NCBI GenBank assembly: GCA_000934665.2
Contig: JYFJ02002814.1
Coordinates: 1 to 50,348, forward strand
Reading direction: 5' to 3'
Source: Catajapyx aquilonaris
Lineage: Eukaryota
DNA length: 50,348 nt
Positions 24,901 through 50,024 of the stretch are shown here, piece after piece. Both the position numbers and the translations under genes were made by a program. Every line of letters starts with the position of its first letter. Positions within the stretch are counted from its first letter, which is position 1. The notes below the pieces were generated by a model that searched no databases, was not told where the DNA came from, and saw nothing but the letters and a program-made list of their open reading frames with translations.

Positions 24901-27900
24901 AGCAGCTTTAGACCTTTCAAGCTGTCGTGGAGGCCATTTGATCTCGTTGCCTGTATTTTACATCTACAAAAAAATTACTCCGCAGAAAAATGCAAGGAAA
25001 GTTCTGATTTCTCAGCGAGAGGAGGCGATTTAGTGATCTAATAAGTCAGCCGTTACTTCAATAGCTTTACAGACAGGTTTGAACGTCAGGCACAATTTAT
25101 ATTACGTACAACTCTTCTACTTCACGACTAATCTCCAAATCAAAATGGTAGTAAATCTGCGACTCACAGCAGTTTGAGCGTTTATGTGGGTGCAGCCGAC
25201 AATTTTGGCTCCATTCAGCGGCTTGTCCTCCGCAGCTCGTTTTCTTAACGCCATTATGCCGGGCATTTCTGTTGGGGAAAAGAAACGGCATTACTCATCA
25301 GCCCTCAGGTAATAGCTTAGAAACCGATCACCATCTAGGGACCCAAACCTTGCTCAGCAATTTCAATCTCGCGCCTCCCTAAGGCATGCTGGTTGATGTT
25401 GCGTACGCAGAAGTCCGTGTAGCCCTTCGTATTCTTCTGGATCTTTTCCCTGGGAGACACATCCTCTTCTTCTGAGCTGCTTCCTGTATATGAAGCTGCT
25501 GGAAGCAAAATGGTAACATTAGTATCACTCCGATATGGTACATTTCATGATCCGCAACACCTGTACGGCATACACCGTACCGTTCTTCCTAGTGGACCTC
25601 TTGGTTTTCACCCTCCTTTTCCTATCCTCAGCACCTTCAACATAATCCCCACTCCTGGAGCGACGATCGCTCCTCTCCGAAGACGACCCCCTGTCCATGA
25701 CCTTTGCCCTCGAATTGTCCCTCACTATCTTTTCACACGCACCCTACCGCCATGTTCGTCCCGATTGTCTGATTGTGTCCCCCCTTCCCACCGAGAGAGA
25801 AAACCCCCGATCGATGCCACAGTCCCTGCTTTTGCCTGGTGCTGCTCTGGGGCACACTACTGGACTTAATGTACCTGCATCTGTACGCGTCTAATTATGT
25901 AGCAAGTACCGCGGGCCTGGATGCGCATACCTCCAGTGTTTGCCAGAGGGTAACAAAACAATGGAAAAAAAAGAAACAATCGCTCGAAGGTGACCCAAGA
26001 AAAAAATTCCAGCGAGCGCACTACAGGGTGGCTCAGCTGTGGTGAACAATCCACCCTGTAGCTCTCATTTTCCGGCGCAAAAAATACCAATTAAACTTGC
26101 CTCCCGCATCTAATTAACCGGTCTCTAATCCAATTTGGAGCCAATAACAGTTAAGTTTCAGTCTTTCCAAACTGGCGCAAAAATTTCGGACAACAGCTGT
26201 TGTTCATTCGCGAAAAAAACAACACATTTTTGGCAACCGAGTTCGACCACACCTTTTTGGAGCGCGACCAATTTTTATATTTAGCATCCCATTGTTAAGA
26301 GGCACGTAACACCGACAAGTATGCGGCACGTACGCACCGAAGTATGTCACGGTACATTTCAAGATAATACGATGCGAAATTCTGCACGGTTAATTAGGCA
26401 AAGTAATATACAGGAGAAAAAAAACTCGCAAATATGCGAATTCAAATCGAGGGGGAGGGGGGTGGAGGCAGGAAAATTCGGTTATGACGTATTCACACTT
26501 ACGCTTTTTTTCATTTAAAAAATCCGCTTGTCTTTCGCTTCATTTAACGGACAGACAGTTCGCTCTGATTTTAATATTAATTTATTTTATTAATTTAAAG
26601 AACGAAGTGGGTTAGGTAGCTCGGACAGATACCAACTTTCCCGTTCATAAGAATATAGAGATTTATTTTATTTATTTTTAAAAAAAGCGCGAGTGTGAAC
26701 GCGGCATTAAACCTACACGAGGTAGAGCAGATGGAAGCGAGGGAGGAACGACGTGAGTCTTGTCCTCGACGTCCAACTTCTAAGTATCTGGCCGACGTCG
26801 GCAGACTGAATCGACGTCGGTTTCGGTCCTTGAAACCACCTCCGCCTTCAAGCAGCTTCTCCGGAATCTGTCCAAGAAAAAAAAAAAAGTCGATTAAACA
26901 CTTAATATGACAGTGCATAAAATCGAATCATGCCCAAACACAACATTCCAATTCAATTGCGGAGCTTGATTCAACCGCCCGTTTCATCCGATTATTACGA
27001 GCAGTTTCAAATCGATTGAAACACTGTGTCACAACAGGATTGACCCCGTTTCACTTTTTTTTCACCTCATAACAATATAGGTCACTCCCAACACGTGGCC
27101 GAATATTTTTCCACAAAAATATTGCTTTTGGCTGCCAACAAAAAAAACGACCTTGCCCAACATGCCATTGTTCTCTCTGTAAAGCTGGCAATAAGCGCTG
27201 CCAAAATACATCGCACTGTTGGCCACGCCCTTAGTGTGACCCATTGTCGCAGGTCACTGGCATGAACCCAAAACTCTCTATTTTTTAACCCTCCTTAAAA
27301 AAAAAAAATCGACCGATCGTCCCCGACACGCGTCGCATGCTGCACAAAAGGTCGCGCAGTTTGTGACATCCCCGAGGCATATTTGGGCTAACGAGATAGT
27401 AGCTCAAGCGATAGGCTCTCTTTCCGACATGCACACAACAATGTTGACTCCCAATAATGTGCCGACATGATGGACGCCACTAAAATGTCGCAGTTCGTGG
27501 CATATAATGTAGTCAACAAGTACGGATGAATTCACCTTTTGCGCACTGTCATTATTCAGACGGCGATAATGTCGACAGTGAAAGGGCGTGCGATAGAAAA
27601 CGAGACGTGATATGCAGAGAAACCGCATAACGGAAACGATAACGATTAGCATGGCTCCACCTTTGTCTCATCGAAAAAGTCCTATAGAACGGCTCTGTCC
27701 CACTGTCTGTCTGTCCGTCTGTGGACAGGTATAATCATGGAGGTGAATTGAGCCTAAACCGCATGAGATAGCGAAAAACGGTTTTCGGATTCGGATTCAA
27801 CGTGACCAAAATAGGTCTAATGGTCAACTTCCGGTTTTCCGGGTTCACTATATCCGTTACAGGCGGGTTTGTCGTTTCCCGCTGCCCAATAAGAAAAAAA

Positions 27901-48900: not shown

Positions 48901-50024
48901 CTGCAATTTTGCTGTTAATTATACTGCACATTTAAGTTAATAACCGTGCCTGTAATTCACTTCAATGCAACACAAAACGTTTCCTTTCACCACCTAACTT
49001 AACAGTCGGAGCAGCACAATTTCCGTGATTCTACTCCCAGGGTTTTGTTATTGCCAAAATTCTTCCGCTGTGATCTACATGCCAGCACCCGCCTTTCTAT
49101 TGGGCCGCCTGTGAGAATATTGAAATTCTTCCCAACCCTAACTTGGCCCTCGAAAGACGGTATTTTCCTTCTCTTTGCCCTGTAATCATAAATTCTTCAC
49201 CCGCATTTCTGGCATCCGAACGTAATATGGAAGTTACTGCATTTCGGCTCGTCTAGAGAGCATAAACCGAGCCCCCCCCAACAAATTTCATTACACCTTA
49301 CACCTGGTTAAGCCTCATGCTTTTGCTACTTTCCCACCTGGCTCCAATCCATTTTGGGAAGGGAAAAGGGGTATAGCGGTACTAATCAGCTTTAGCCTAT
49401 ATAGAACGAAAATTAACGCTCATCGATTTTTACTCTGCGGTATCGGCCCTGAAGAGAAGCCCTAATTGCACTCGGACACTACACATTGTCACACCTCGCT
49501 CGGGTGTATCAAGAGGTACACATGAAACAGTGCCCCCTGACATTTGACCCCGCACATTTGTAACTGGCATAATATTACAGGGCGAAATTCAGATAATGTC
49601 TGTTAAAATCATGTAAATGTCACTTAACCCTTCGATTAGTGTATATTATTTTACAGCGTGTTCCAATTTTTTTTAATGTTTTGACAAAATTTAAGACCCA
49701 CAAAGCCCTGCATTAGTTTAAATTGGTGTACCAATTCGGCATAATTTACCATATTGTTACAAACCAAAAAAAAGTGACACGTGCTTAAAATAAGCCGCTT
49801 GTGGCTAAACAGGAAATTAAATTGATTACGCGAATTCATAAATCAAATGGCTTAAGTGACGTTAAGTGGCTTTAAACCGGTTCAAGTTAGACAACGTCTC
49901 TGAATTCCACCTGCTAATATGTCTCACTTGACTCACCTGAACTGTACGAGTCTGTTGATGAGGCAGATAATGAGCGGCTTCTGTAACGACTGCTTCTCTT
50001 CATGGCACTGGCCACCTTCGGATC
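21949..50024 (-). CDS. AHCYL1: IRBIT / S-adenosylhomocysteine hydrolase-like protein (AHCYL1/2); canonical isoform exons 50024-49937, 25498-25349, 25268-25168, 24564-24294, 23350-23047, 22836-22503, 22443-22365, 22293-22173, 21955-21949; first exon probably right of the window
   Basis: 484 codons plus stop, in frame: [48 protein letters not shown]...DFCVRNI...[22 protein letters not shown]...[16 protein letters not shown]...[15 protein letters not shown]...LDDGGD...|GIVEESVTG...KTKFDNLY...GYGEVGKG...GHSNTE...[17 protein letters not shown]...[10 protein letters not shown]. All introns GT-AG. Confidence 0.95.
25581..25698 (-). CDS. Candidate alternative first coding exon of AHCYL (short isoform): [39 protein letters not shown]
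   Basis: gtcATGg context, 39 codons plus 1 nt, phase-1 donor G|GTACGG, and an 82-nt intron to the phase-1 acceptor at 25498. Confidence 0.55.
26717..26867 (-). CDS. Candidate alternative internal exon of [55 protein letters not shown]
   Basis: Long T-tract, acceptor TTCTTGGACAG, 151 nt open (phase 0 to phase 1), donor T|GTAGGT. Joins exon 25498 in frame to give [20 protein letters not shown]. Confidence 0.7.
27943..28125 (-). CDS. Candidate alternative first exon of AHCYL ([18 protein letters not shown]...RPGLIMVE), phase 0, able to splice to 26867
   Basis: gctATGg context and 61 open codons with coding-like composition. The donor GAG|GTGCTT is weak, and an out-of-frame upstream ATG at 28192 overlaps the start. 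Confidence 0.5.
28926..29173. mobile_element. Fold-back Tc1/mariner-type MITE (248 bp), almost entirely palindromic
   Basis: TA|CAGTGTTGGACAATT...AATTAATGTCCAGCACTG|TA. Arms pair over about 80 bp, plus an inner stem GTGACGTCACCGGCTGG / CCAGCCAGTGATGTCAC. Confidence 0.75.
30774..31255. mobile_element. pogo/Tigger-type MITE remnant
   Basis: TA|CAGTTGACTCCGGATATAACAGACT at the left end and AGTCTGTTATATCCGGATTCAATG at the right. The CAGT..GA..C.C.GATATAAC terminus is typical of pogo-like elements. Confidence 0.65.
35382..35459 (-). CDS. Candidate alternative first exon of [31 protein letters not shown], phase 0
   Basis: acaATG context, 26 codons, strong donor AAG|GTAAGA. In phase with the acceptor at 26867. 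Preceded by a (TG)n tract. Confidence 0.6.
35727..36064. repeat. Near-identical ~165-bp direct duplication flanking an N at 35898 (probable assembly overlap)
   Basis: GGCTGCACCGCCGCAGTG...CATCATGGAGGGGG occurs at 35727-35890 and 35899-36064, apparently differing only in an A-run length. Confidence 0.85.
43012..43057. repeat. Perfect 46-bp palindrome with no spacer
   Basis: TATTGGTGCATCCTGTAGTCGTA|TACGACTACAGGATGCACCAATA. Confidence 0.95.
48759..48806. repeat. Perfect 19-bp inverted repeat with a 10-nt spacer; member of a local TAGCAG-rich repeat family
   Basis: TGCTAACTTAGCAGTACCA-ctaccaacac-TGGTACTGCTAAGTTAGCA. The same arm recurs at 41676-41694. Confidence 0.85.
49937..50024 (-). CDS. AHCYL1: Canonical IRBIT serine-rich (PEST) exon of AHCYL; absent from the ORF track
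   Basis: TTGCAG|GAT CCG AAG...TAC AGT TCA G|GTGAGT encodes [29 protein letters not shown], matching [18 protein letters not shown]. Confidence 0.93.

What the first reader, a model, noticed from the sequence alone, without database searches (positions are those of the whole stretch)
25499..50024. IRBIT/AHCYL locus built as a cassette of swappable N-terminal regulatory modules on one constant pseudo-enzyme core
Seen: one phase-1 acceptor (25498/25495) can be reached in frame from three different upstream exons: the canonical PEST exon 24.4 kb away (50024-49937), a second serine-rich exon (26867-26717), and a proximal ATG exon (25698-25581). The second exon can itself be fed by at least two phase-0 ATG exons (28125-27943 and 35459-35382). 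Known: the phosphorylated IRBIT N-terminus determines binding to IP3 receptors, NBCe1-type transporters and ribonucleotide reductase, and vertebrates diversify it through two paralogues and alternative first exons. Inference: this single gene makes four or more isoforms from separate promoters and swaps the phospho-domain itself, not just the appendage in front of it.
Basis: partly seen in the sequence, partly recalled or inferred. Interest (0 to 1): 0.8.

Follow-up and report, generated by a model that had tools for sequence, protein, structure and literature searches.

The report
Two alternative phospho-exons in arthropod IRBIT

Summary
The gene on the minus strand is an AHCYL/IRBIT orthologue. 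A spliced, mismatch-free transcript contig from a public run joins 35655-35382 > 26867-26717 > 25498-25349 > core exons with GT..AG introns. That proves two of the five junctions and an internal first exon. The 151-nt exon 26867-26717 is conserved in three mayflies and four unnamed sources: 33 of 53 columns are invariant among six sequences, splice sites and phases are kept in the two relatives whose DNA was read, and pN/pS is about 0.3 with saturated synonymous sites. RefSeq models it in mayfly isoforms X3-X5. The distal exon 50024-49937 carries the near-invariant arthropod [17 protein letters not shown]. It corresponds to mammalian S68-S77, the PKD/CK1 half of the phospho-code. The constant exon holds the CK2 half (S80-S85). 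So only the priming half is swapped, by alternative promoter use. The proximal ATG exon (25698-25581) and the 28125-27943 exon have no homologue or transcript support, and about 100 such ATG-to-GT pieces per splice phase occur in this intron. Verdict: partly confirmed. It is a new variant of a known kind, already present in automatic annotation but apparently not in the literature.

The parts
49937..50024 (-). Distal ('canonical') serine-rich exon, 88 nt, phase 0 to 1. It encodes ..[21 protein letters not shown], the equivalents of mammalian S62-S77. It has an AG acceptor, so its upstream exon(s) lie beyond the window end.
   Evidence: 51 of 52 hits carry R[YR][12 protein letters not shown][YF]SS. 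The donor is TCAG|GTGAGT. Mammalian peptide [10 protein letters not shown] = S68-S77. No RNA evidence from this organism.
35382..35655 (-). Internal alternative first exon. The 5'UTR runs from at least 35655, and the ATG at 35459 opens [26 protein letters not shown]. Donor AAG|GTAAGA.
   Evidence: Spliced contig record 1, piece 35382-35655, joint 35382>26867. Sequence, translation. There is an in-frame stop upstream of the ATG (ORF 35295-35528).
26717..26867 (-). Alternative serine-rich exon, 151 nt, phase 0 to 1: [50 protein letters not shown].
   Evidence: Joints 35382>26867 and 26717>25498. Conserved in mayflies and unnamed sources. Splice sites and phases are conserved in L001 and L002. 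pN/pS 0.29-0.32.
25349..25498 (-). Constant exon with a NAGNAG acceptor (25498/25495) and a third possible acceptor at 25483. It encodes (A)[28 protein letters not shown], the equivalents of mammalian S80/T82/S84/S85 and the start of the coiled coil.
   Evidence: (the contig uses 25498). Mammalian peptide AASYTDSSDD = S80/S84/S85.
25168..25268 (-). Core exon ([12 protein letters not shown]..).
   Evidence: Joints, where the 'cut +3' note places the GT donor after 25168. Sequence. tblastn 86-91% identity to insect AHCYL1.
24291..24564 (-). Core exon, AdoHcyase domain.
   Evidence: (PF05221, E 1.5e-37).
22172..23393 (-). Remaining core exons, at about 23393-23049, 22835-22485, 22458-22339 and 22294-22172 up to the stop. 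Boundaries come only from tblastn.
   Evidence: 70-98% identity to mayfly, locust and cockroach AHCYL1. (PF00670, PF05221).
25581..25698 (-). An open frame with donor ACG|GTACGG (3 of 6 consensus positions). Unsupported, probably a chance ORF.
   Evidence: no homologue; 95 comparable pieces in the intron.
27943..28125 (-). Donor GAG|GTGCTT lacks the usual +4A/+5G. Unsupported, probably a chance ORF.
   Evidence: (4 hits, none AHCYL).

Best explanation
This is an arthropod IRBIT/AHCYL gene with two mutually exclusive N-terminal modules chosen mainly by promoter.

- A distal promoter lies beyond the window. It would lead through the 88-nt exon 50024-49937, which encodes the classical priming half of the IRBIT phospho-code: basophilic sites, the 'master' S68 equivalent and the CK1 sites S71/S74/S77.
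- An internal promoter near 35655 produces a short His/acid-rich leader. It splices to the 151-nt exon 26867-26717.
- Both routes join the same phase-1 acceptor of the constant exon. That exon carries the CK2 half (S80/T82/S84/S85 equivalents), the coiled coil and the AHCY-like core.
- Both variable exons are phase 0 to 1. Including both shifts the frame and meets TGA after six codons. Each mRNA can therefore carry only one of them in frame.

The alternative exon keeps the design but not the sequence of the classical one. It has a basophilic site RRSS followed by serines at +3, +6 and +9 ([10 protein letters not shown]), which looks like a CK1-type ladder. It also has a second invariant site, NRRRFSLP, which by recalled consensus resembles a PKA site or a 14-3-3 mode-1 site.

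The likely effect is an IRBIT whose IP3-mimicking CK2 motif is unchanged, while its priming and anchoring half answers to other kinases or partners. That would alter when it is activated and which targets it prefers.

Shown: the exons, the splicing of the internal-promoter isoform, the conservation and purifying selection, and the position of the exon boundary between the two kinase halves.

Inferred: use of the distal exon in this animal, the kinases involved, and any functional difference.
For: - Spliced contig with exact GT..AG joints 35382>26867>25498>core, 0 mismatches, depth 36.9.
- The alternative exon recurs at 60-75% identity. It is present in 5 of the 46 candidate proteins, among them Ephemera danica and Cloeon dipterum 'adenosylhomocysteinase-like 1 isoform X3'. 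It also recurs in 2 metagenome loci.
- 33 of 53 alignment columns are invariant among 6 sequences.
- In L001 and L002 the acceptor AG|AT(A/C)CCAGAG and the phase-1 donor T|GTAAxx sit at the same codon positions as in the window.
- pN/pS is 0.29-0.32 with pS 0.70-0.81, which is saturated.
- Cluster members show Cloeon X3/X4 and Neocloeon triangulifer X3/X4/X5, all with this exon behind three different first exons. The Cloeon gene model P0072 has the classical exon upstream of the alternative one in a single model, the same order as here.
- The classical exon motif is present in 51 of 52 hits. In 23 of them the SP[RK] landmark of the constant exon follows within 37 residues.
- The core exons match AdoHcyase and AdoHcyase_NAD and are 70-98% identical to insect AHCYL1.
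- Literature read as passages: S68 is the master site for PKD/CaMK, then CK1 acts on S71/S74/S77; CK2 acts on S80/T82/S84/S85; the two halves are separate IP3R-binding sites; the peptides [10 protein letters not shown] and AASYTDSSDD are printed (PMC13319452; PMC4887697).
- The frameshift stop on double inclusion is read directly from the sequence.
Against: - No RNA from this organism was seen for the distal exon joined to 25498/25495. The only transcript seen carries the alternative exon.
- Run X1 has no recorded library type, so that it is RNA is inferred from the splicing itself.
- The two variable exons show no detectable homology (hhalign probability 2.7%), so they are not a classical duplicated exon pair.
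- The first exon here shows no sequence similarity to the mayfly first exons.
- The kinase and 14-3-3 assignments for the alternative exon rest on recalled consensus motifs, not on any test.
- In four unnamed contigs (P0023, P0034, P0040, P0050) the classical and constant exons lie in one short ORF. The intron there is roughly 100 nt, so the alternative exon cannot lie in it in those animals.
Confidence: 0.8

Rival explanations
1. One reading: four or more isoforms. These would include a proximal-promoter form starting at 25698 that lacks any priming half (a natural 'delta-77'-like IRBIT) and a second leader at 28125-27943 feeding exon 26867.
For: Both frames are open and in phase. Short introns are used in this gene: 80 nt at 25348-25269, so an 82-nt intron is plausible. 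Mayfly RefSeq models feed the alternative exon from three first exons. A mammalian delta-77 IRBIT still binds IP3R after CK2 phosphorylation (PMC13319452 passages).
Against: The intron holds 95 (phase 1) and 116 (phase 0) comparable ATG-to-GTR pieces, close to shuffled expectation. The donors are weak: GTACGG scores 3 of 6, and GTGCTT scores 4 of 6 but lacks the usual +4A/+5G. No protein shares the proximal peptide (6 candidates, none at E<=1). The 28125 peptide hits only 4 unrelated repeat proteins among 1.84 billion representatives. Neither peptide resembles a mayfly first exon.
Confidence: 0.1
2. The alternative-exon isoform is the only functional product here. The distal exon 50024-49937 would be a relic, or belong to a transcript that no longer reaches the core.
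For: The only transcript contig seen runs through the alternative exon without a branch at 25498.
Against: The distal exon keeps all 18 residues that are invariant across the arthropod alignment A2, an open frame, a polypyrimidine/AG acceptor and a consensus GTGAGT donor. That is not expected of a relic, since synonymous sites between these lineages are saturated. Contigs drop rare variants, and only one run was available.
Confidence: 0.07
3. The spliced X1 contig comes from a processed retrocopy or an assembly chimera and not from mRNA, so the internal first exon and its junctions would not reflect current splicing.
For: The library type of run X1 is not on record.
Against: The contig matches five exons with 0 mismatches and joins them exactly at GT..AG borders. 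Its depth of 36.9 compares with about 3 for the unspliced fragments nearby. The whole run is only 31.8 million letters of contigs. Independent RefSeq isoform models in two mayflies have the same exon order, leader > IPEKL exon > SYTGSSS exon.
Confidence: 0.03

Closest known systems
RefSeq 'adenosylhomocysteinase-like 1' isoforms X3/X4 of Cloeon dipterum (XP_065352214.1, XP_065352215.1) and X3/X4/X5 of Neocloeon triangulifer (XP_059490646.1-XP_059490648.1), plus Ephemera danica KAF4525135.1
   Same: They share the [25 protein letters not shown] exon, 72-74% identical to the window's. It is joined to the same SYTGSSS(D/E) constant exon behind short alternative leaders. In Cloeon the classical exon lies upstream in the same gene model.
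   Different: These are automatic models in insects. Their first exons are not recognisably similar to the one here. The mayfly junction reads ..TS|SYTG, which corresponds to the 25495-type acceptor, whereas the transcript here uses 25498 (..STS|S|ASYTG).
Vertebrate Long-IRBIT (AHCYL2) N-terminal splice variants V1-V4 (Kawaai et al. 2017 PNAS). The paper itself is not held and is known here only through passages of PMC7966362.
   Same: One AHCY-like core is combined with different N-terminal sequences. The variants are reported to differ in stability, target spectrum and functional consequence.
   Different: [quoted passage not shown] Here the first half of those sites is itself replaced.
Drosophila AhcyL1 (CG9977, IRBIT) and AhcyL2 (CG8956, IRBIT2), two separate genes
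   Same: These are two arthropod IRBIT forms with different partner binding. Only IRBIT, not IRBIT2, bound RNR efficiently (PMC7068126 passage).
   Different: They are two genes, not two exons of one gene. Whether the AhcyL2 N-terminus corresponds to the alternative exon could not be tested, because no Drosophila sequence was in reach.
Arthropod mutually exclusive exon pairs made by tandem exon duplication
   Same: Both exons have the same phase class (0 to 1), and including both breaks the frame.
   Different: The lengths differ (88 against 151 nt). There is no detectable homology. The choice is tied to a separate first exon, so this is alternative promoter use and not a duplicated-exon cluster.

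Membership tests
AHCYL / IRBIT family | C-terminal S-adenosylhomocysteine-hydrolase-like domain (AdoHcyase plus its NAD-binding domain) | tested here: met
   Pfam PF05221 and PF00670 on four core exons, E 1e-15 to 3e-42. 70-98% identity to insect AHCYL1.
AHCYL / IRBIT family | N-terminal serine-rich multi-phosphorylation region matching the mammalian peptides [10 protein letters not shown] (S68-S77) and AASYTDSSDD (S80-S85) | tested here: met
   The window encodes [10 protein letters not shown] (9 of 10 identical) at the end of exon 50024-49937. The constant exon then follows: it encodes ASYTGSSSE, and with the split codon of the 25498 acceptor reads [10 protein letters not shown] (7 of 10 identical). 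The mammalian peptides are as printed in PMC13319452.
AHCYL / IRBIT family | Coiled-coil linker between the serine-rich region and the core ([14 protein letters not shown]..) | tested here: met
   [22 protein letters not shown] spans exons 25498-25349 and 25268-25168 and is identical in the insect proteins. That it forms a coiled coil was not computed.
AHCYL / IRBIT family | No hydrolase activity; phosphorylation-dependent binding to IP3R, NBCe1-B and RNR | not testable with these tools
   Needs biochemistry.
Tandem-duplicated mutually exclusive exons | The two exons are recognisable homologues of similar length | tested here: not met
   hhalign of A1 against A2 gives probability 2.7%. The lengths are 151 and 88 nt.
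Tandem-duplicated mutually exclusive exons | Same splice phases, and joint inclusion disrupts the frame | tested here: met
   Both exons are phase 0 to 1. Reading 26867 onward after a phase-1 donor gives GAT TCC GGA GAA GCT GCT TGA.
Alternative-promoter N-terminal isoforms (as in vertebrate L-IRBIT variants) | A separate first exon inside an upstream intron, spliced to shared downstream exons | tested here: met
   Contig piece 35655-35382 is joined to 26867. The start site itself is not mapped, because contigs cannot show a 5' end.
Alternative-promoter N-terminal isoforms (as in vertebrate L-IRBIT variants) | The multi-phosphorylation region stays constant among the variants | tested here: not met
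   The S62-S77 equivalents are encoded by the swapped exon. Only the S80-S85 equivalents are constant.

The most novel reading that the evidence does not exclude
The IPEKL..RRRFSLP..RRSSLASxCS exon is an ancient alternative 'priming module' of IRBIT, shared by deeply diverged arthropod lineages. It rewires the kinase input (PKA/14-3-3-type site plus its own CK1 ladder) and the peripheral anchoring half of the phospho-code, while the CK2-made IP3-mimic half stays fixed. One gene would then yield two IRBITs with different activation signals and target preferences. This would be the single-gene counterpart of IRBIT against Long-IRBIT in vertebrates, and possibly the ancestor of the AhcyL1/AhcyL2 split in flies.
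Probability: 0.3. Interest if true: 0.7.

Novelty: new variant of a known kind. Interest (0 to 1): 0.5.

Why it matters
IRBIT is a hub regulator of IP3 receptors, bicarbonate transporters and ribonucleotide reductase. Its activity is set by a multi-site phospho-code. In vertebrates that code is treated as constant, with diversity placed in front of it.

Here the exon boundary falls exactly between the PKD/CK1 half and the CK2 half defined biochemically in 2026. Evolution has kept two alternative versions of the first half over a very long time. This is a natural domain-swap experiment: comparing the two isoforms would show what the priming half contributes to kinase control and target choice. 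It also flags isoforms that arthropod studies of AhcyL1 could otherwise overlook.

Tried and rejected
- RNA runs: no RNA holder is listed for window:22400-28200. Only run X1, of unrecorded kind, was offered.
- Coverage in X1: no contig covers 25581-25698. The only cover in bin 25534-26200 is the unspliced 275-nt record 2 at 25792-26066, depth 3.1. No joint was listed for 27943>26867. Such gaps prove nothing.
- Own genome: none is held, so copy number and paralogues could not be checked.
A 40-aa reference gave 6 candidates, none at E<=1.
- Exon 28125: phmmer gave 4 hits, a tandem-repeat protein and bacterial FG-GAP-like repeats, none AHCYL. I judge these multi-repeat chance matches.
- Pfam on 24 peptides and ORFs of the intron gave nothing above cut-off.
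- Homology between the two variable exons: none.
- Homology of the internal first exon to mayfly leaders: none. A HHHSPGRN match upstream in L001 is not in an open ATG frame.
- Other conserved insect N-terminal exons in the window: none below E 0.08.
- L001 and L002 do not reach the constant exon, so the proximal exon could not be tested in relatives.
- ESM Atlas gave no usable hit. PDB sequences gave none for either variable exon.
- Literature: searches found no paper describing this exon. The motifs [15 protein letters not shown] and DSRRSSL occur in 0 papers. Subscription papers and supplements were not searched.
- Earlier scan notes: nothing for this place or sequence. Notes on other pieces of the genome disagree on the taxon, from crustacean-type to springtail-like to insect-type, so I leave it at 'arthropod'.

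
Full report
**What is in the sequence**

The finding lies on the minus strand of an animal gene. The coordinates, phases and splice dinucleotides are as described.
- The constant exon begins at a tandem acceptor cag|cag (25498 or 25495) and ends at 25349. It encodes (A)[18 protein letters not shown]...[10 protein letters not shown].
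- The distal exon 50024-49937 is 88 nt, with an AG acceptor and donor TCAG|GTGAGT. It encodes [29 protein letters not shown].
- Exon 26867-26717 is 151 nt, with a long pyrimidine tract before cag and donor CGT|GTAGGT. It encodes [50 protein letters not shown].
- Three ATG-initiated pieces are open and in the stated phases: 25698-25581, 28125-27943 and 35459-35382.

Downstream exons match Pfam AdoHcyase and AdoHcyase_NAD. They are 70-98% identical to mayfly, locust and cockroach 'adenosylhomocysteinase-like 1'. The gene is an AHCYL/IRBIT orthologue.

**Is in-frame reachability more than chance?**

No. In the 24,438-nt intron between 49936 and 25499 I counted two kinds of ATG-initiated open pieces of at least 75 nt that end at a GTR.
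- Phase 1: 95 pieces from 50 distinct ATGs. Block-shuffled sequence gives 36+-6 ATGs.
- Phase 0: 116 pieces from 61 distinct ATGs. Block-shuffled sequence gives 38+-9 ATGs.

On a six-position donor consensus the proximal exon scores 3, the 28125 exon 4 and the 35459 exon 5. Each candidate therefore needs independent evidence.

**Transcript evidence**

Only one public run (X1, library type not on record) holds part of the stretch. I laid it on window:24200-44199. It gives one contig of 2711 nt at depth 36.9, with no mismatch, in five pieces:
- 35655-35382
- 26867-26717
- 25498-25349
- 25268-25165 (the donor lies after 25168 once the three ambiguous letters are assigned)
- 24561-24291, after which the contig runs off the laid stretch

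Every skipped part is bounded by GT..AG on the minus strand. This proves junctions 35382>26867 and 26717>25498. It also shows that a first exon inside the big intron, with at least 196 nt of leader before the ATG at 35459, starts an mRNA that reaches the core.

The contig uses acceptor 25498. The distal exon lies outside what could be laid, and both read tools were then exhausted, so its junction remains untested in this animal.

That X1 is RNA is my inference, for three reasons. The contig joins across four introns exactly. Its depth is ten times that of the unspliced fragments nearby. The whole run is only 31.8 million letters of contigs.

**Conservation of the alternative exon**

A word-indexed search for longer proteins found 5 relatives among 46 candidates:
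- Ephemera danica KAF4525135.1
- Cloeon dipterum 'adenosylhomocysteinase-like 1 isoform X3'
- three unnamed ORFs that read through the exon into the intron

In the two mayfly proteins the exon is followed directly by SYTGSSS(E/D)(E/D)DDVSPR, the constant exon. Among six sequences 33 of 53 columns are invariant, in two blocks: [21 protein letters not shown] and [12 protein letters not shown].

A metagenome scan gave two loci with the exon, at 71% and 60% identity. In both, an AG sits immediately before the Ile codon and a GTAA donor follows one base after the last full codon. These are the same positions and phases as in the window.

Nei-Gojobori counts give pS 0.70-0.81, which is saturated, and pN 0.20-0.26. 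That is pN/pS 0.29-0.32, and dN/dS about 0.11 for the one pair with a finite dS. The exon is old and under purifying selection.

**The same architecture in mayflies**

The 90% cluster of the Cloeon protein holds Cloeon X3 and X4 and Neocloeon triangulifer X3, X4 and X5. All carry the exon behind three different leaders: MA.HH.QVPH.HSTSS.NEEDDDHVP.QIGK, MAL.KQHC..AAAVPLQRSLSMST.PQ and MLR.

A 663-residue Cloeon gene model (CAB3381575.1) runs from a classical N-terminus with ..[21 protein letters not shown], through presumably mis-called sequence, into the X4 leader and the alternative exon. In Cloeon the classical exon therefore lies upstream of the alternative one in the same locus, as it does here.

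But the leader used here shows no detectable similarity to the mayfly ones, and no window sequence resembles the X4 leader.

**The distal exon**

A search with the 46-codon open frame around it gave 52 hits among 80 candidates. Of these, 51 carry R[YR][12 protein letters not shown][YF]SS. They include full-length AHCYL1 of termites, cockroach, cricket, locust, bugs, beetles, bees and ants, and fragments from ticks and a centipede.

In 23 of them the constant exon's SP[RK] landmark follows within 37 residues of the motif. The continuation is most often ASYTGS (9), then ASCTGS (5) or GSSSDE (3). The window keeps all 18 residues that are invariant in my seven-sequence alignment and has consensus splice sites. 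Its use here is very likely, but it is inferred.

No further conserved insect N-terminal exon is in the window (best E 0.087). This fits the AG acceptor at 50025: the distal first exon lies beyond the window.

**The two unsupported exons**

- The proximal peptide found nothing (6 candidates, none at E<=1).
- The 28125 peptide, searched by phmmer against 1.84 billion representatives, found 4 proteins. None is an AHCYL protein. The three that I read are a tandem-repeat protein and two bacterial FG-GAP-like repeat proteins, matched in several weak stretches.
- Pfam sees nothing in either.

With donors GTACGG and GTGCTT, and the chance counts above, I rate them about 10% and under 10% likely to be real.

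**How it most likely works**

Passages of PMC13319452 and PMC4887697 give the mammalian code.
- PKA acts on S62/S64/S66.
- PKD or CaMK acts on the master site S68.
- CK1 then acts on S71/S74/S77.
- CK2 acts on S80/T82/S84/S85.
- The two halves form two contact sites on the IP3-binding core. A delta-77 protein still binds after CK2 phosphorylation.
- The printed peptides are [10 protein letters not shown] and AASYTDSSDD.

Aligned by eye to these, the window's distal exon ends exactly at the S77 equivalent ([10 protein letters not shown]|), and the constant exon starts with the S80 equivalent. The swap therefore replaces the PKA/PKD/CK1 half and keeps the CK2 half.

The alternative exon has RRSS followed by serines at +3, +6 and +9. 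This spacing is also kept in mayflies, where it continues to the T82 equivalent. It also has the invariant NRRRFSLP. By recalled consensus, RRxS is a basophilic-kinase site, pS-x-x-S is a CK1 site and R-x-x-pS-x-P is a 14-3-3 mode-1 site. These assignments are untested inference.

Both variable exons are phase 0 to 1. Joining the distal exon to 26867 gives GAT TCC GGA GAA GCT GCT TGA, so a message can carry only one of them in frame. A distal upstream exon, which ends in phase 0, could in principle skip to 26867 in frame. This is not shown.

**Comparison with what is known**

[quoted passage not shown] The L-IRBIT splice variants differ in N-terminal sequences, with effects on stability and target spectrum (PMC7966362 passages). 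The primary paper, Kawaai 2017, was not held.

Drosophila has two genes, of which only AhcyL1/IRBIT binds RNR well (PMC7068126 passage).

The present arrangement is a different way to diversify, because part of the phospho-code itself is alternative. It is not a duplicated-exon pair: hhalign gives 2.7% probability and the lengths are unequal.

It is already present in RefSeq isoform models. I found no paper on it in six searches, and the exon's motifs occur in none of the held papers. Subscription journals and supplements were not covered.

**Verdict**

I classify it as a new variant of a known kind, of moderate interest.

The taxon of the window is not established. Earlier scan notes on other pieces of the genome disagree, so the age of the exon is stated only as 'shared with mayflies at saturated synonymous divergence'.

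Noticed in passing
window 25483-25500 (minus strand): The constant exon has three stacked acceptors: cag|cag|CTTCATATACAG|GAAGC. Using 25483 would give ..SYSS|GSSSEEE and delete (A)ASYT, the S80/T82 equivalents. Three insect proteins (Cryptotermes isoform X2, Dendroctonus, Trachymyrmex) have exactly ..SYSSGSSSDE.., and most insects read ..SYSSASYTG (25495-type). The transcript seen here uses 25498.
   Followed up: partly
window 35730-36065: A direct duplication of about 175 nt just upstream of the internal first exon, with an N and a C-run at its joint (35895-35905). It looks like an assembly gap artefact in the presumed promoter region.
   Followed up: no
proteins P0023, P0034, P0040, P0050: In four unnamed contigs the classical exon and the constant exon lie in one short ORF, separated by roughly 30-40 codons. 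The intron that is 24.4 kb here is only about 100 nt there and cannot hold the alternative exon.
   Followed up: no
window 27943-28125 (minus strand): The peptide [29 protein letters not shown] resembles one FG-GAP/VCBS-type repeat unit. phmmer hits on bacterial repeat proteins have E 1e-4 to 2e-4, summed over 4-5 stretches. Probably chance.
   Followed up: partly
window 288-839 (-), 6115-7134 (+), 15338-15619 and 17111-17467 (+): Neighbouring genes: a THOC7 exon (PF05615), an SCA7 zinc-binding-domain protein with long proline-rich tracts (PF08313), and an Arf-family GTPase (PF00025).
   Followed up: partly
window 18184-19163: Two overlapping ORFs of 189 aa on opposite strands share similar segments (..[21 protein letters not shown]..). 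A third ORF carries a ..[14 protein letters not shown].. motif that I recall from mariner/Tc1 transposases. Pfam found nothing on the one ORF tested. Likely a decayed inverted transposon pair in the Arf-AHCYL intergenic region.
   Followed up: no
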